Positions 1 through 63,265 are shown, numbered from the stretch's first letter. The stretch is DNA of 64,000 nucleotides from the human T2T-CHM13v2.0 reference genome, Homo sapiens (GCF_009914755.1 NC_060928.1), one strand, 5' to 3'. Notes: generated by a model not told the origin, from the sequence alone. Translations and numbers: made by a program.

Positions 1-95
1 CCACTTTTCGTTGGAAATTTTTGAACAATGTGCATTTCTTTGAATTGAAGTTCTTTAGTATAAAAGGGGAGACGGTGATGGCCTGGGGTGCTTTT

Positions 96-377
96 TCTTA
101 TACATTTAAGGGGTACAGTGCAATTTTGTTACTGGTATAGTGATAACCTGTGCTTCTAGGGTATCCATCTCCCTAGTAATGTGCATAGTATCCATTAGTT
201 TTTCATGATCCACTCCCATTACCCCTTGACCCATCACCCATGACCCTTCTGAGTCTCCAATGTCTGTAATTGCACACCCTATGTCCATATGTACACATTA
301 TGTAGCTCCCATTTACAAGCGAGAACAGGTATTTGACTTGCTGTTTCTCAGTTGTTTCACTTAAGATAATGGCCTCC
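96..377 (-). mobile_element. L1MA3-like 3' end fragment
   Basis: TTTAAGGGGTACA...TAGCTCCCATTTACAAGCGAGAAC...CACTTAAGATAATGGCCTCC. Degenerate TSD TGGGGTGCTTTT (84-95) / TAGAGTGCTCTT (378-389). Empty sites at ~27290 and ~42430. Confidence 0.8.
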
Positions 378-654
378 TAGAGTGCTCTTGCTGGGAGGTT
401 TTAATTTTGTATTCATTTGGTTCCCTGGGCCACCTGTATATCTTACACCTACTTCCTGCGATTTCAGACAATCTTGATAAGAACATTGAAAAAATGGATT
501 AATTGAATGGAGTTCATAATATGCACTTCCCCTAGAGACTGTAAAACAAGTCCCACCTTTATTCTTGATAGAAATAATTGGGCATTTTCAAATGGATGAA
601 TCATGCCAGTAGAAGAATAGTTAAGATTCTTATCTGAAGTGAGACCCAAGTATC

Positions 655-870
655 TGCATATGGATATCCTAAATTCAGATCCTGAGACCTATGTTTGAGG
701 TAGAAAGGCTTGTGAAAGTGACTCCAGGAAACATGGAGGAGTAATGAAGACAGGGTAGGAAGAGCAGCCAGACCTGGGAGAGCATTGAAGAGGTCACCTC
801 TATGCTGTGTGCAACTCAGTCTCCCTGGGAATCCTCTAAAAACCCACATGGAAAATGATGTCCCAGAATC
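655..870 (-). mobile_element. LTR33-like ERVL LTR remnant, copy b of the unit (paralogs ~27585-28085, ~42725-43215)
   Basis: GGAAGTGATCCCAG(G/A)AA...GAGACA...GCAGCCA...CTCAGT.CC.CTGGGAA resembles the reverse LTR33 consensus as recalled. Confidence 0.55.
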
Positions 871-2762
871 TCATTCCTAGGATTGCCTACCACATCCAAC
901 CTACATCTTTAAGGGTAGTATTCTTTTTGTACTGCAGACGTGTACCTTGGTGCTTGAGGCTGATGTGCCTTGGGTGATTTTAGAGAGCCAGTACAGTGAG
1001 AATTTTGATAGACTCAGCAGTTCTACCTGAAGCATGATATATATTTTGGCAACTAAACTATCCTGCTTCAATAACGAGTGGTAACCCACGTTGGGATCTT
1101 ATTAGGGCCAGGTGAGGCTTGGGGCTAAGAGCCAGCCTGATGGCACCTCCTCAGGGTCCTGCTGAGTGTTGCCCACCATCCAGTGAGCAGCTCTACACTG
1201 GCAGGTGCTTCTGAGGTTTCATCCTGAATGTTCTCATTCTTCCAGGCTGCTTCATCTATGCAGGATAATTCCACAGCCTGGGGCCAGGAATCTAGCACCG
1301 ATCCAGAGACTGAGTCCACTGTAAGGATAACTCACTGCAAGCTGCCGGTGCTGTGAGGCCTGTACCTAACCCCAGCCTCTAACCTTCAGCTTCATTTGGG
1401 CTGGAAGTGGCCATTTGTGGTGAGAGCTGAAAACAACACCCTTCCTTTATGACTGGACGAGGAACAGCTGCCTTGTCAGTGTCACTAGGGCTGGTCCACT
1501 GCTTATCTAAGGTTAAGGAGAACTAAAAATGGGATGTCCTGCACATCTGGACCTCATGGACTCTAGAGGAAAGCCAGACACTCCTTTCATGCCTGGAGAC
1601 TGTTGTGACTTCAGTGTTACTTATTTGACCCATGCTCACATGGAGTGGCTATCTGATTCTGTTTCTTCCCCACAGACTGTTGAGCAGAACACATTTTCCT
1701 GAGTGATTTTTCACCTTGAAAGGAACAAGTAGTTCCATCCAGTGATTTAAACCTGCTCTGGCAGTTTCTCAGAAAGGTCAATGATAGATGCACAGCTTAA
1801 ACTCACCCAGAGGTGGTGAAGGACTGAGCGCAGAATGCGTGGTGCTGGAAACCTTTGCTTTTCTTACGGCTTGTGCAAACCATTGAAACGTGCTGTTCCG
1901 CAAATTCTGTGTGCAGTGCTGATTGCGGTCATGTCAGCAGCTTTGCTGCACAAGAAAGGCTCAGTAGTCTTGAATCCAAGAATCCTGTTTCTGACTCCAT
2001 GTCCATCACCAGGGTGTGAAAGTGCTTGGCTGTCTGGCTCCTGGGGCCCAAGAGTGAACCAAAGGGCTCTCTTGATGTGGAAGCAGCTGCTGGTCTTGCT
2101 TTCCAGGTCTTAGCTATTTTCAGGTTCTGGGGAAGTGTTTCACAGAGCCTGGAAGGTGGCTGCCACAGGGGAGGGTGGAGGAAGCTTGGAGCAGTGTGTC
2201 AGGACAACTATCCTGGGTGCTGGGTGAGGAATGTTCTGCCTCATGGGAGCTATGCTGACTTTACAGATCATGGACAGCAGGGACCTCGTGGCCCACTCTG
2301 AAAGGGGATTCTCTCTAGGATGGAGAATTTAAGCACCCAGTTATCTAAGTCCACCTAGTTAGGAAAGAATGCCGTTTTTAAGATGTCTGACTTGGATTTG
2401 AAACAATCTGCATATTATATATTTCTACCTTAGCTGGTGGTAGAATCTAGTGTGGAAATGGCCTGGGCCTAGAGCAAACTTGGAAATTTTGATTTAGCTT
2501 CCGTCGTTGAAAATCTGTTCTCTTTTGTTTGAATCTGTATCTTTTAAGGCATTTCTGTTTGACACATTTGACAAATAAATGGCTACTCTAAATTTTTCCA
2601 ATATCTCTACCCTGGAATGCTAAGATTCATTACAATTTTCTTTGCCTGCCTTTCTTGATCCAGGGTTGCCAGAGAAACAGATCTGAGGGCTCCTATATAA
2701 AATACAAGGAAAAACAAAGACGATTCTGGATTTCCATGAATGTTGAAACTAAATTTGACAGG

Positions 2763-3230
2763 TGCTATATTTTGTATGGTGTTGCAAATGACTTAGGAGC
2801 TCAAATCAACTTTCTTACAGTTTTAGAAATCAGAAGTTTGAAATAGGTTTCATTTAGAGAAAACAAAGTTGTTAGCAAGGTTGTATTTCTTTCTGGCTGC
2901 TTCAGAGATCACTTTCCTCACTTTAGACCCCATATAAAACATGACTTGTGGCTTCTTAGTTAATCCTCAGTCAGGACCTTCATTGGTGTTGAGTCAGCAC
3001 CATGCTCTGATTTTTTTCTTCTGACTCTTGCCTCCAATTCTCAGTCTTCCTCTTTATCATGTTAAGCTAAGATTACCCTGGGTTTGGCCAGGGGGCCCAC
3101 TGTCAGCAAGGTGATTAAAGTCAGCTGACTACAACCCAATGCCTTGGGTCCTAATTCACCCTTGCTGTGTAGCATGTATTCACAGGTTCCAAGGATGGGG
3201 ACATGGGTATTAGAGGACTGTCTCTGGCCG
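2763..3230 (-). mobile_element. MLT1C/D MaLR LTR, ancestral to the unit (paralogs ~14957-17647, 19795-20317, 31385-31885, 45885-47035, 59255-59643)
   Basis: TCTTACAGTT.TAGA..TCAGAAG...AGCTGATTAGCAACC...ATTCACAGGTTCCA.GGAT..GGACATGG, at the same position in every unit. Confidence 0.8.
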
Positions 3231-3244
3231 CTTTCCTTGGTACT

Positions 3245-61474: not shown

Positions 61475-61506
61475 GGAAATTCTAAAACTGGGAAATTCTA
61501 AAACTG
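61475..61506 (+). repeat. Perfect 16-bp tandem duplication
   Basis: GGAAATTCTAAAACTG x2. Confidence 0.9.
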
Positions 61507-61892
61507 GGAAGACCCAGGTTTAGAAGACACTCTATATTGTGTGTCTCTTAAAGATAAAAAAAAACATCATAAAAGAGCCAGTTTGAATCTTTCCTCCCAA
61601 AACACACATTCCTGGAAATCCCAATTAGGAGTGTATTGTGGGACAAGATCTGCGGTAGTCTGGGACTATGTAGCTGGTTTCCCTGTTTCCTTCAGGAACA
61701 CAGCATGTGAGAGTGCTAAGCACTACTCAGATGATGTAAGTTGGAAACAATTAGATGTCACCATGTTTTGAATCATCCCATGGTCCCGTAGATAGAGCCT
61801 TAGTTTACATTACCTGGCGTATGAAATTGGATGTTGGTCCTCAACTTGTTAGAACCCTTAAGTCTCATGTATGGTTCATGCATTAAAAGGGC

Positions 61893-62190
61893 GGCTGGGT
61901 ACGGTGGCTTACGCCTGTAATCCCAGCACTTTGGGAGGCTGAGGTGGGTGGATCACCTGAGATCAGGAGTTACACACCAGCCTGACCAACATGGTGAAAC
62001 CCATGTCTACTAAATACAAAAAAATTAGCTGGGCAATGATGGCGGGCTCCTGTAATCCCAGCTATTTGGGAGGCTGAGGCAGGAGAATCACTTGAATCTG
62101 GGAGGTAGAGGTTGCAGTGAGCTGAGATTGAGCCGTTGCACTCCAGCCTTCACAGCAAGAGCAAAACTCTATCTCCAAATAAAAATAAAA
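61893..62190 (+). mobile_element. AluS (Sq/Sp-like)
   Basis: Full dimer; TSD about TAAAAGGG. Confidence 0.9.
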
Positions 62191-62267
62191 AGGGGTATAG
62201 TGGAATATAACACCCCCATTGGAGCTGAAGGGCATTTCATTGGAAACTTAAACATTGATCCAGTGGC

Positions 62268-62527
62268 TTTGGGAGGCCGAGGTGGGCAGATAACGAGGTC
62301 AGGAGATTGAGACCATCCTGGCTAACATGGTGAAACCCCGTCTCTACTAAAAATACAAACAAAAATTAGTTGGGCATGGTGGCGGGCACCTGTAGTCCCA
62401 GCTGCTCGGGAGGCTGAGGCAGGAGCATGGCGTGAACCTGGGAGGCGGAGCTTGCAGTGAGCCAAGATCATGCCACTGCACTCCAGCCTGGGTGACAGAG
62501 TGAGACTCTGTCTCAGGGGGGAAAAAA
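62268..62527 (+). mobile_element. AluY-like, 5' truncated
   Basis: GAGACCATCCTGGCTAAC and GGCGTGAACC.GGGAGGCGGAGCTTGCAG. TSD about ATCCAGTGGC / ATCCAATGGC. Confidence 0.9.
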
Positions 62528-63265
62528 AAAATTTATCCAATGGCAAGTTAGCACTAATGATAAATGTCATTTTTCCTTGTTGTATGGATAAAGCTGCCTT
62601 TCCTTACCTGTTTTTACACTACCTGCTAACTAGCATTGAAGGTATCCTTGGTGACCTTACTACAATCTTAAAAGGACCCTCCACTAAATATTATATGGAA
62701 AATTGCATGTTTTAATTTCCTGGTTAGTAGTCTGCTTGTTCTTGGAACTTTTCCTTAGTTGAGACAGATGACTAGTCTCACACCAGGTTAAAGTAGAGCT
62801 GCTCACAGATGTCACAAGGATCATCTACAGTGGAAGATCAAGGTTTTGATTGTAGATGTTTTAGCTGTGGTAGAGGCTCGTTAATACTAATGTCAAGATC
62901 TATGGATGTTGAGGGCTGGAGATCGTAAAGCTTTCCTAGTTGACGCTTCATAACTGCTGATGCTTTAGTCAGAAAAACAGTTACGGAAAAGTTTTCCTTT
63001 ACATCAAATCTTGCAGTAGTGGTAGGCATGTTACCTGTAAAATGACACAGCCTTCTTTCCATGAAGGGATAGTACTCAAAGATCATACTCTTTAAAACTT
63101 ACACCTGTCATGCAAACTGCAAATGTCAGCTGGATATTTTGAAATACTGCAAATGGAAAATGTGTGGTCTTGATTATCCAGGTGGGGACCTGGAATGATG
63201 TGACAGGAAATTCCTATATCGTTAAAAGCCTGTGCTTCAGAGAAGTATAATACAGAGGGGAAGAA

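What the first reader, a model, noticed from the sequence alone, without database searches (positions are those of the whole stretch)
1..63265. Hidden ancient non-coding macro-array of a ~10-13 kb unit spanning the window
Seen: the same anchors recur in order 5-6 times (e.g. ~1424, 13541, 29911, 44484, 57905), and no ORF, snoRNA or miRNA hairpin that I could see is conserved across units. MLT1, LTR33-like and Tigger remnants are shared between units. L1MA3, L1PB, MER50/51/61, THE1, Alu and L1PA are unit-specific, with empty paralogous sites where I could align them. Inference: amplification postdates MLT1 and Tigger, and the U0 versus U3/U4 split predates L1MA3, which places it in early eutherian or early primate time. 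It is too diverged for standard >=90% segmental-duplication tracks and matches no satellite I recognise, so it may be unannotated. It is a candidate repeat-structured lncRNA or small-RNA precursor locus.
Basis: partly seen in the sequence, partly recalled or inferred. Interest (0 to 1): 0.85.

Follow-up and report, generated by a model that had tools for sequence, protein, structure and literature searches.

The report
Ancient decayed tandem duplication array
This is a real but very old and heavily decayed head-to-tail duplication of a 12-16 kb DNA segment, part of a roughly 150 kb array whose older copies hold dead fragments of an Mx antiviral-gene retrocopy, and it looks like a neutral genomic fossil rather than a working RNA locus.

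Summary
The window carries five same-strand units of 12-16 kb that align collinearly over 5.9-9.7 kb per pair at 61-66% identity. A reversed-sequence control gave 0 hits in 10 of 10 pairs.

The array is larger than reported, running from about -81 kb to +71 kb in window coordinates. The unit backbone matches only this chr4 locus in the 3.1 Gb assembly.

The older upstream units contain seven intronless, minus-strand relics of an Mx1-like dynamin-family GTPase. Three of them are RefSeq pseudogenes LOC100422637-9. Shared break points show the Mx copy was already broken when those units were copied.

The window's own units carry no detectable Mx coding sequence and no Rfam, tRNA or non-L1 Pfam match. 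Their conservation profile is flat at about 70%, with no covarying RNA structure.

Branch lengths of about 0.27 substitutions per site suggest an early-eutherian age.

Verdict: an ancient segmental-duplication fossil, with no support for the lncRNA or small-RNA reading. One invariant 13-mer per unit remains unexplained.

The parts
1..1040 (+). Tail of unit U-1, which is window-type but lacks block A. The whole unit is about -12600..1040 in window coordinates and lies mostly outside the window.

Further upstream and outside the window, about 6-7 older, rearranged units reach about -81 kb. They carry seven minus-strand Mx1-like relics:
- a, -77834..-77462
- b, -56628..-55992
- c, -54687..-54317
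- d, -43023..-42712
- e, -31141..-30413 (= LOC100422637)
- f, -23870..-23190, plus a scrap at -25853..-25688 (= LOC100422638)
- g, -21614..-20428 (= LOC100422639)
   Evidence: U-1: collinear 57-62% matches, for example U3 53685-54572 to -895..-56 and U4 65033-65669 to 382-999. Older units. Mx relics: Pfam Dynamin_M 29.2 bits against a cut-off of 28.5; tblastn of MX1 exon ORFs; PDB Mx1 E = 1.6e-14 and 3.1e-10; nhmmer.
1041..13161 (+). Unit U0 (12.1 kb), window-type
   Evidence: Collinear chains to U1-U4 of 6.3-9.6 kb at 61-65% identity. Block A copy at 1356-2488.
13162..29528 (+). Unit U1 (16.4 kb). It includes an L1 insertion at 15017-17198 and an extra partial block at 17.2-19.5 kb.
   Evidence: Pfam RVT_1 at 16264-16611, E = 7e-20. 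Extra block pieces at 18760-19043 and 19043-19498.
29529..44399 (+). Unit U2 (14.9 kb). Its middle (about 34.9-41.2 kb) is unit-specific and carries an L1 ORF1 relic at 37207-37371 on the minus strand.
   Evidence: Block CD copy at 33366-34873. Transposase_22, E = 8.6e-6.
44400..57526 (+). Unit U3 (13.1 kb), used as the reference unit. It lacks the first ~380 bp of the unit.
   Evidence: 10,599 of 13,127 positions align to at least one other window-type unit, and 7,996 to at least three.
57527..64000 (+). Unit U4, cut by the window end. The whole unit is 57527..~69456. It is followed outside the window by a partial unit U5 (69457..~71027, block A only), which is the right end of the array.
   Evidence: Beyond 71027 only interspersed-repeat-type matches were found, searched as far as +124 kb.
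56587..57513 (-). Young L1 3' end inserted at the U3/U4 junction. It is unit-specific.
   Evidence: 92-94% identical to 39 of 39 scored copies genome-wide. Absent at the U0/U1, U1/U2 and U4/U5 junctions.
5768..6414 (.). U0-specific interspersed repeat (~640 bp) whose site is empty in U3.
   Evidence: 73-79% identical to many copies. The flanking anchors 5621 and 6408 in U0 correspond to 49674 and 49817 in U3.
46467..46813 (.). Interspersed repeat of about 345 bp in U3.
   Evidence: 78-81% identical to many copies genome-wide.
55698..56090 (.). U3-specific LTR-like interspersed repeat. It contains the RefSeq silencer at 55872-56095.
   Evidence: 70-84% identical to many copies.
50317..51279 (+). 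The site in U3 where upstream units carry the N-terminal GTPase half of the Mx relic. In U3 the left flank (50317-50509) and the right flank or 'spacer' (50451-51279) abut, with no Mx sequence between them.
   Evidence: One search gives the flank equivalents: -56801..-56610 and -24007..-23853 on the left, -30275..-29805 and -22595..-21807 on the right. Relic profile HMMs find nothing here.
51722..52163 (+). Block W, present in every window unit (also at 8464-8924, 25410-25876 and 62538-62668). In upstream relics c and d it is joined directly to a broken Mx stalk fragment.
   Evidence: nhmmer with query d.
44837..44849 (+). 13-mer TGGCAGTTTCTCA, kept at the homologous spot of block A. It is also found at 1759, 13880, 30275 (1 mismatch) and 58259, and outside the window at 70183 and -66203.
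   Evidence: 8 hits at up to 1 mismatch in 264 kb, against 0-1 in each of 10 shuffles. It is the only 11-mer run shared by 5 or more units.

Best explanation
The window holds the younger part of a fossil, hierarchical tandem segmental duplication of about 150 kb in the WDR1-ZNF518B gene desert.

Shown:
- A locus-specific unit of 12-16 kb is repeated head to tail.
- All copies lie in one orientation.
- Copies have decayed to about 60-72% identity.
- Later repeat insertions are private to single units.
- Older units upstream carry intronless fragments of an Mx1-like GTPase gene.
- The same broken Mx fragments, with the same junctions to non-Mx DNA, recur in several units.
- The window-type units (U-1 to U5) lack detectable Mx coding sequence.

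Inferred:
1. An MxA-like mRNA was retrocopied into this locus in an early mammal.
2. The copy broke up.
3. The surrounding DNA was then duplicated repeatedly by unequal crossing-over or replication slippage between neighbouring copies.
4. One Mx-less derivative unit was amplified about seven times in a short burst around the eutherian radiation.
5. Since then the array has drifted neutrally.

Today it most likely does nothing specific. The predicted lncRNA and the two assay-derived silencer marks look incidental.
For: Tandem, collinear and non-random:
- Searches show the parallel same-strand alignments. The reversed-sequence control gave 0 of 10 pairs with any HSP.

Locus-specific backbone:
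- Probe 44400-46000 gave 12 matches, all on chr4:10.216-10.3625 Mb, with 10 of 10 candidates scored.
- Probe 46830-51280 had 17 of 17 candidates scored. The matches were local, apart from scraps of about 100 bp.

Array extent:
-.

Mx identity of the upstream relics:
- Dynamin_M above its cut-off.
- PDB Mx1 E = 1.6e-14 for the stalk. For the GTPase piece, Mx1 E = 3.1e-10 against Mx2 E = 1.1e-5.
- The only other genomic match of the stalk peptide is an MX1 exon on chr21 (that locus is shown to be MX1).
- Seven exon peptides that span about 13 kb in MX1 lie within 1.14 kb in relic g.

The Mx copy was dead before it was copied:
- Relics b and f share the junction to the U3 50317-50509 equivalent, and relic e ends within about 60 bp of it.
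- Relics c and d align continuously across their Mx/W junction.

Window units lack Mx:
- Profile HMMs of the GTPase and stalk relics, run with --max, gave a best window E of 1.3-7.9. The best hit in the reversed control was 0.2.
- In U3, U1 and U-1 the two flanks of the relic site abut.

Neutral-looking decay:
- The conservation profile is flat, mean 0.700, sd 0.034, maximum 0.787.
- Transitions roughly equal transversions, and K2P is 0.35-0.42 among U0-U4.
- There is no Rfam, tRNA or non-L1 Pfam content.
- There is no covariation.

Burst:
- The window copies form a nearly unresolved star in the block A tree, with terminal branches of 0.16-0.32.
Against: - One 13-mer is retained exactly in six block A copies, and with one mismatch in a seventh. 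Uniform neutral decay at about 0.27 substitutions per site does not predict this. It hints at a small constrained site in each unit.
- dN/dS between Mx relic copies is somewhat lower in the Mx frame (0.34-0.74) than in the shifted frames (0.31-1.89). A period of coding constraint after copying is therefore not excluded.
- RefSeq predicts an lncRNA that spans U2-U4 and lists two silencer elements (hub table).
- No other mammal could be examined, so the age rests on branch lengths and a recalled neutral rate.
- Local alignments at this divergence are biased towards the better-kept parts.
- The nested history of the older units was not fully resolved.
Confidence: 0.75

Rival explanations
1. Fossil of a once-functional antiviral gene family. 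An intronless Mx retrogene became active at this locus and was amplified in tandem under selection from viruses in early mammals, as happened with other antiviral gene families. The whole cluster later died and decayed.
For: - Seven Mx-derived relics lie in the same orientation, spread over about 57 kb of the array.
- dN/dS in the Mx frame is 0.34-0.74, against 0.31-1.89 in the shifted frames.
- Passages of PMC4687636 note that copy-number expansion is typical of antiviral genes (TRIM5, APOBEC3), while Mx appears 'relatively static'.
Against: - The recurring copies are fragments with shared break points: the N-terminal GTPase half alone in b, e and f, and a stalk piece of about 110 aa alone in c and d. 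Neither fragment could make an Mx protein.
- The largest burst, seven window-type units, copied DNA with no detectable Mx sequence.
- dN of about 0.47 is close to the neutral divergence. The lower ratio comes mainly from a higher dS, which codon-position composition inherited from a coding ancestor can produce without any selection.
- No relic has a long open frame.
Confidence: 0.1
2. One reading: a repeat-structured lncRNA or small-RNA precursor locus. Each unit would contribute a functional RNA module, and the array would be kept for that reason.
For: - RefSeq predicts a two-exon lncRNA (40895-43435 and 60947-61582, minus strand) across U2-U4 (hub table).
- One 13-mer, and three further islands of 12-16 nt, are kept in several units.
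Against: - Rfam gave 0 matches.
- No 100-bp window exceeds 79% identity across units.
- The best-conserved block folds weakly, at -13.3 and -7.8 kcal/mol over 264 columns. Its covariation terms are penalties.
- The lncRNA is a single predicted model.
- Expression data could not be examined here.
Confidence: 0.05
3. Not a true duplication. The diagonals would come from independent insertions of the same old transposable elements (for example L1 or LTR elements) in the same orientation.
For: - Some diagonals are indeed interspersed repeats, for example 23884-24661 vs 56715-57491 (79%), plus the Alu and L1 matches.
- Small old repeat scraps lie inside shared blocks, at 46916-47034 and 52873-53073.
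Against: - Collinearity of up to 9.7 kb is kept in the same order in every unit.
- The backbone probes hit only this locus in 3.1 Gb.
- No reverse transcriptase, endonuclease or transposase relic was found in the shared blocks among 497 ORFs.
Confidence: 0.02
4. The units are introns or flanks of a live tandem gene family with small exons that both readers missed.
For: Exons encoding fewer than 50 aa would escape the ORF-based Pfam scan.
Against: - The hub's RefSeq table lists no coding gene or pseudogene in the window.
- No conservation peak exists of the kind that exons shared by paralogs would leave.
- The only gene-derived sequence in the array is the broken Mx retrocopy, upstream of the window.
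Confidence: 0.01

Closest known systems
Ancient (below 90% identity) segmental duplications, as surveyed by SDquest (PMC5991524; passages read)
   Same: Long, low-copy, non-transposon DNA is present in several copies. It is too diverged for the standard 90% definition. The structure is mosaic and nested.
   Different: Identity here is about 60-72%, at or below SDquest's stated 70% floor. The arrangement is strictly tandem, with at least 13 units in one orientation. Whether SDquest lists this locus was not checked, because I did not open its supplements.
Macrosatellites such as RS447 (4p16.1) and D4Z4 (named from recall)
   Same: Kilobase-scale units arranged head to tail.
   Different: By recall, macrosatellite units are kept nearly identical by homogenisation and vary in copy number between people. 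Here the units differ by 30-40% and each has private repeat insertions. No homogenisation has acted for a very long time.
Processed pseudogenes (retrocopies) later caught up in segmental duplication
   Same: The Mx relics lack the parent gene's introns, are riddled with stops and frameshifts, and lie on a different chromosome from MX1 and MX2.
   Different: The relics are not independent retrocopies. They are copies of already broken pieces, multiplied with their flanks. No poly(A) tail or target-site duplication could be sought at this age.
Tandem expansions of antiviral genes (TRIM5, APOBEC3; cited in passages of PMC4687636)
   Same: Several same-strand copies of an interferon-effector gene family sit at one locus.
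   Different: These copies are fragments of a retrocopy, not intron-bearing genes. None is intact, and the main amplification lacks the gene.

Membership tests
Ancient tandem segmental duplication | At least two copies of more than 1 kb of DNA that is not a high-copy interspersed repeat | tested here: met
   Unit chains of 5.9-9.7 kb. The backbone probes match only chr4:10.21-10.36 Mb.
Ancient tandem segmental duplication | Copies adjacent, head to tail, in the same orientation | tested here: met
   Unit ends abut unit starts at 13161/13162, 29528/29529 and 69456/69457. All alignments are plus to plus.
Ancient tandem segmental duplication | Similarity beyond chance | tested here: met
   0 HSPs in 10 of 10 reversed-sequence controls, against 6-16 HSPs per real pair.
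Ancient tandem segmental duplication | Old age, shown by presence in other mammalian orders | not testable with these tools
   No other mammalian genome is held. The age is inferred only from branch lengths of 0.16-0.32.
Macrosatellite / satellite DNA | High identity between units, maintained by homogenisation | tested here: not met
   61-66% identity with gaps counted, 68-72% without. TRF finds no large-period array.
Macrosatellite / satellite DNA | Copy-number polymorphism between individuals | not testable with these tools
   Only one assembly is available.
Mx (dynamin-family) processed pseudogene, for the upstream relics | Significant match to dynamin-family domains, closest to Mx | tested here: met
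   Dynamin_M 29.2 bits against a cut-off of 28.5. PDB Mx1 E = 1.6e-14 and 3.1e-10, Mx2 E = 1.1e-5, and no classical dynamin at E of 1 or below.
Mx (dynamin-family) processed pseudogene, for the upstream relics | Parent introns absent | tested here: met
   Seven MX1 exon peptides (chr21:39,828,222-39,841,603) map contiguously to -20473..-21614.
Mx (dynamin-family) processed pseudogene, for the upstream relics | Reading frame disrupted | tested here: met
   Stops in all three frames, and the match shifts between frames.
Mx (dynamin-family) processed pseudogene, for the window's own units | Any Mx-derived coding sequence present | tested here: not met
   Relic profile HMMs: the best window hit has E = 1.3, and the best hit in the reversed control has E = 0.2. 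Best tblastn hit in the window is E = 0.058, at 52220-52324.
Structured small-RNA or lncRNA repeat locus | A known RNA family, or a conserved and covarying structure, in the units | tested here: not met
   Rfam gave 0 matches. RNAalifold covariation terms are +1.51 and +1.2, which are penalties. Only the best-conserved ~220-nt stretch of the unit was folded.
Structured small-RNA or lncRNA repeat locus | Unit-phased expression | not testable with these tools
   No expression data are held.

The most novel reading that the evidence does not exclude
The array is the graveyard of an early-mammalian expansion of an intronless Mx-type antiviral retrogene. The retrocopy was active and was multiplied in tandem under selection from viruses. 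It then collapsed, while a derivative unit went on being duplicated. If so, Mx copy number was not 'static' in mammalian history, and each unit may still keep a small protein-binding site (the invariant 13-mer).
Probability: 0.1. Interest if true: 0.65.

Novelty: new member of a known kind. Interest (0 to 1): 0.3.

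Why it matters
It is a clear worked example of a class that standard tracks miss: tandem duplications so old (60-72% identity) that neither segmental-duplication catalogues nor repeat maskers flag them. It fills most of a gene desert of about 150 kb, and a second, unrelated fossil array lies next to it.

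It also links three isolated RefSeq pseudogenes, plus four further relics that the hub's table does not list, to a single Mx1-like retrocopy that was multiplied along with its flanks. That gives a dated marker for the history of the Mx family and of the 4p16.1 region.

Practically, it argues against treating the region's predicted lncRNA or its silencer calls as evidence of a repeat-encoded function.

Tried and rejected
- Translating long stretches directly for Pfam failed because of stop codons. I used stop-free ORFs instead.
- Whole-unit genome searches were swamped by young repeats, with only 39-40 candidates scored. Narrower probes of shared blocks were informative. Probe 51640-55690 had only 40 of 1,452 candidates scored, so its uniqueness is less certain.
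- Upstream DNA chosen as a 'non-array' negative control turned out to be diverged array. This redirected the work.
- The genome-wide Dynamin_N search recovered only 1 of the 7 chr4 relics, so Pfam models alone under-detect them.
- MX1 exon peptides, single-relic nhmmer queries and multi-copy relic profiles all failed to find Mx sequence in the window.
- I could not test the idea that the 'spacer' block (U3 50451-51279 and its paralogs) is the 3' UTR of relic g. The 43-aa ORF to the left of -21614 has no PDB match, and the last MX1 exons were not fetched.
- The dN/dS test for past coding constraint was inconclusive.
- Block A tree: 'window' against 'upstream' is not a clean split. Copies at -66.6k and -75.0k group with the window copies, and only 2 of 11 inner branches are well supported.
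- Searches for print mentions of Mx pseudogenes or of the LOC identifiers found nothing: 0 papers in each. One search listed nothing relevant.
- One search was set too loosely and gave mostly noise. Only its three strongest hits, repeated cleanly, are used.
Features outside the window are now described inside the text of the edge parts.

Full report
OBSERVATION

A blastn self-comparison of the 64-kb window gives long same-strand alignments at about 64-76% identity. Examples are 20097-23226 vs 46830-49984, 3654-5621 vs 47639-49674 and 13478-14225 vs 44420-45188. In a second run, 123 plus-strand HSPs sum to 48,196 bp, against 51 minus-strand HSPs summing to 8,604 bp. A 1-kb dot-plot shows sets of parallel diagonals. 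Tandem Repeats Finder reports only microsatellites.

I delimited five units:
- U0, 1041-13161
- U1, 13162-29528
- U2, 29529-44399
- U3, 44400-57526
- U4, from 57527 onward

With sensitive scoring, every pair of units chains collinearly over 5,865-9,736 bp at 61-66% identity. The same search against reversed, not complemented, units gave no HSP in 10 of 10 pairs. Minus-strand matches were 90-1,489 bp per pair, consistent with scattered interspersed repeats.

nhmmer finds the first block of the unit at 1356, 13474, 29845, 44415, 57843 and 69775. The core observation is therefore correct and non-random.

EXTENT AND UNIQUENESS

The host assembly (3.1 Gb; the window is contig C4:10,292,001-10,356,000) could be searched.
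- A 1.6-kb probe from the unit start matched 12 places, all between chr4:10,216,398 and 10,362,505. All 10 first-look candidates were scored.
- A 4.45-kb probe from the unit's middle had 17 of 17 candidates scored. It matched only this locus, apart from a scrap of about 100 bp that also occurs elsewhere.
- A third probe also gave local matches plus a 160-bp scrap. Only 40 of its 1,452 candidates were scored.
- Whole-unit probes were dominated by young repeats private to single units. These are a 927-bp L1 3' end at 56587-57513 (92-94% identical to many copies), repeats of about 345 bp and about 393 bp in U3, and a repeat of about 640 bp in U0 whose site is empty in U3.

I fetched 140 kb upstream and 60 kb downstream of the window. 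U4 continues to about 69456. A partial sixth unit ends near 71027, and beyond it only repeat-type matches occur.

Upstream DNA that I had picked as a negative control proved collinear with the units at 57-62% identity. A full map shows a further window-type unit (U-1, about -12.6 kb to 1040) and about 6-7 older, rearranged units, reaching back to about -81 kb. The array therefore spans about 152 kb, and the window holds its younger half.

CONTENT OF THE WINDOW UNITS

- Rfam at gathering thresholds gave 0 matches, and there were 0 tRNAs.
- Of 507 stop-to-stop ORFs of at least 50 aa, 497 were scanned against Pfam. The other 10 lie in the terminal simple repeat.
- Only two hits exceed the curated cut-offs: L1 reverse transcriptase at 16264-16611 and L1 ORF1 at 37207-37371. 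Both lie in unit-specific DNA. Five weaker hits are all below their cut-offs.
- I projected the other six window-type units onto U3. Of its 13,127 positions, 10,599 align to at least one unit and 7,996 to at least three.
- In the 118 100-bp windows covered by at least three units, identity averages 0.700 (sd 0.034, maximum 0.787). No exon-like or RNA-like peak stands out.
- I folded the best-conserved stretch (U3 44740-44960 and five paralogs) as an alignment on both strands. Consensus energies are -13.3 and -7.8 kcal/mol over 264 columns, and the covariation terms are positive, which means penalties.

THE Mx RELICS

The hub's table lists three pseudogenes 20-31 kb upstream of the window. Their three-frame translations share motifs with one another.
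- One open piece matches Pfam Dynamin_M (29.2 bits, cut-off 28.5, E = 6.7e-7).
- A six-frame genome search with Dynamin_N found the classical dynamin genes, two loci on chr21, and one further chr4 site at -77.7 kb.
It is MX1: one of its exon ORFs matches PDB Mx1 chains at E = 9e-40.
- tblastn of MX1 exon-bearing ORFs against the 264-kb region found minus-strand relics at seven places. In window coordinates these are about -77.8k, -56.3k, -54.5k, -42.8k, -30.8k, -23.5k (with a scrap at -25.8k) and -21.0k.
- In relic g, seven exon peptides that span about 13 kb in MX1 lie within 1.14 kb, so the introns are absent.
- The relics are closer to Mx1 than to Mx2. The stalk piece gives Mx1 E = 1.6e-14 and no Mx2 match at E of 1 or below. 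The GTPase piece gives Mx1 E = 3.1e-10 and Mx2 E = 1.1e-5.
- The only other genomic match of the stalk peptide is the MX1 exon.

POSITION OF THE RELICS IN THE UNIT

- Relics b and f begin directly to the right of the equivalent of U3 50317-50509. Relic e ends within about 60 bp of the same point.
- To the right of e and f lies the equivalent of U3 50451-51279.
- In U3, U1 and U-1 these two flanks abut, with nothing between them.
- Relics c and d are stalk fragments of about 330 bp, joined on their right to a block (W) that every window unit contains. Relics c and d align continuously across that junction.
- The same broken pieces therefore recur with the same junctions, which means they were copied after they broke.
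- Single-relic nhmmer queries, and two multi-copy profile HMMs run without filters, hit every upstream relic. They hit nothing in the window better than E = 1.3, while the reversed-sequence control reached E = 0.2.
- The best in-window tblastn hit has E = 0.058.

The window's units therefore carry no detectable Mx coding sequence. Whether their 'spacer' block descends from the 3' untranslated end of relic g remains open. Relic g is traceable only to -21614, and the next ORF has no PDB match.

AGE AND MODE

- Among U0-U4, gap-free identity is 68-72% and Kimura distance is 0.35-0.42, with transitions roughly equal to transversions. Local alignment biases these figures towards the better-kept parts.
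- I built an ML tree of 14 block A copies. It gives terminal branches of 0.16-0.32 substitutions per site (median 0.27).
- The window copies, plus the copies at -66.6k and -75.0k, form a nearly unresolved group. Four upstream copies form a well-supported separate clade (100/98). Only 2 of 11 inner branches are strongly supported.
- With a neutral rate of about 2.2e-9 per site per year (recalled, not measured here), the last burst dates to roughly 70-145 million years ago.
- A figure legend in PMC4687636 places the MxA/MxB duplication at the origin of eutherians (passages). A relic that resembles Mx1 more than Mx2 fits a retrocopy made after that split, although an Mx1-like pre-duplication parent is not excluded.
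- The mechanism is inferred, not shown: unequal crossing-over or replication slippage between neighbouring copies.

WAS THE Mx COPY EVER A WORKING, AMPLIFIED GENE?

I measured dN/dS between pairs of relic copies. The codon frame was defined on a third copy, and the same columns shifted by 1 and 2 bases served as controls.
- Frame 0 gives 0.34-0.74. The shifted frames give 0.31-1.89.
- dN is about 0.47, close to the neutral distance. The lower ratio comes mostly from a higher dS.
- Composition inherited from a coding ancestor could produce this without selection, so I treat the test as inconclusive.
- The shared truncations, and the Mx-less main burst, argue against selection on Mx function.

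AN UNEXPLAINED DETAIL

The 13-mer TGGCAGTTTCTCA sits at the homologous spot in seven block A copies. Six are exact and one has a single mismatch.
- It has 8 hits at up to 1 mismatch in 264 kb, all on the plus strand. Ten shuffles gave 0-1 hits each.
- It is the only 11-mer run shared by five or more units. Three further islands of 12-16 nt are shared by four units.
- Given branches of about 0.27, its survival is not expected under uniform decay.
- It could be a protein-binding site, a mutational cold spot, or luck.

COMPARISON WITH WHAT IS KNOWN

- The closest category is ancient segmental duplication. Passages of PMC5991524 state that the usual definition needs 90% identity, that SDquest reaches 70%, and that many older duplications remain unknown. 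This array lies at or below that floor.
- It is not a macrosatellite in the usual sense, because its units are not homogenised.
- The Mx relics meet the criteria for a processed pseudogene.
- Full-text searches for 'Mx pseudogene(s)', 'MX1P1' and 'Mx-like pseudogene' found 0 papers. Searches for the four LOC identifiers also found 0 papers. A search combining MX1, pseudogene, chromosome 4 and retrocopy listed nothing relevant.
- In PMC4687636, 'chromosome 4', 'processed' and 'intronless' occur 0 times.
- In PMC11789081, six related terms occur 0 times.
- Supplements were not opened, and subscription journals are not covered.

VERDICT

The interpretation as an ancient, unannotated tandem array is right. 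The functional RNA reading has no support.

The new elements are:
- the true size of the array;
- its link to a single broken Mx1-like retrocopy, multiplied with its flanks;
- four relics that the hub's table does not list;
- a neighbouring, independent fossil array.

It is a new member of a known kind and of modest interest.

Noticed in passing
window coordinates -129000..-83000 (loci L010-L014): A second, apparently unrelated, ancient tandem array lies just upstream. For example, -118171..-112369 matches -106958..-101043 (68.7% over 6.2 kb), and -115144..-112371 matches -86029..-83226 (70%). A 3-kb probe hits only chr4:10.175-10.207 Mb, with 13 of 13 candidates scored. Fourteen ORFs of 70 aa or more have no Pfam match, and no Mx relic was seen there.
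   Followed up: partly
window coordinates -19412..-12555 and -124675..-118172: Two LTR-flanked elements of about 6.5-6.9 kb from one family, 81% identical to each other. The terminal repeats are 83% and 81% identical within each element. The nearer one interrupts the array about 1 kb to the right of Mx relic g, which explains the stretch with no unit matches. I only observed them.
   Followed up: partly
window 55872-56095 and 10568-10862: The two RefSeq 'silencer' features are not at homologous unit positions. One lies inside a U3-specific high-copy LTR-like repeat at 55698-56090. The other overlaps a local inverted duplicate, 9219-9410 against 10754-10556, at 84%.
   Followed up: partly
window 6322-7068 and 19043-19498: Weak internal paralogs of block A lie inside units (E = 3e-10 and 7.6e-44). 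The 12-kb unit is therefore itself built from older sub-duplications.
   Followed up: no
window 13478-14225 vs 44420-45188: Block A of U1 and U3 is 76% identical, well above the ~65% typical for other pairs. This could reflect a later copying event or an old gene conversion.
   Followed up: no
window 63323-64000, continuing to about 64160: A compound (TATG)n/(CA)n-type microsatellite of about 0.8 kb lies inside U4. It produced spurious tblastn hits to a translated intronic repeat of MX1.
   Followed up: yes
window coordinates -61111..-59378: RAF1P1 (from the hub table) sits inside the older part of the array, between unit matches at -61.2k and -58.9k. It looks like a separate insertion and not part of the repeated unit, since no paralogous copy of it appeared in the self-comparison.
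   Followed up: no
window 1179, 29658, 57662 (and 69589); 11810, 43313, 54981 (and 68128): Two further short islands, a 16-mer and a 13-mer, are kept exactly in four units each. Their significance is marginal.
   Followed up: no
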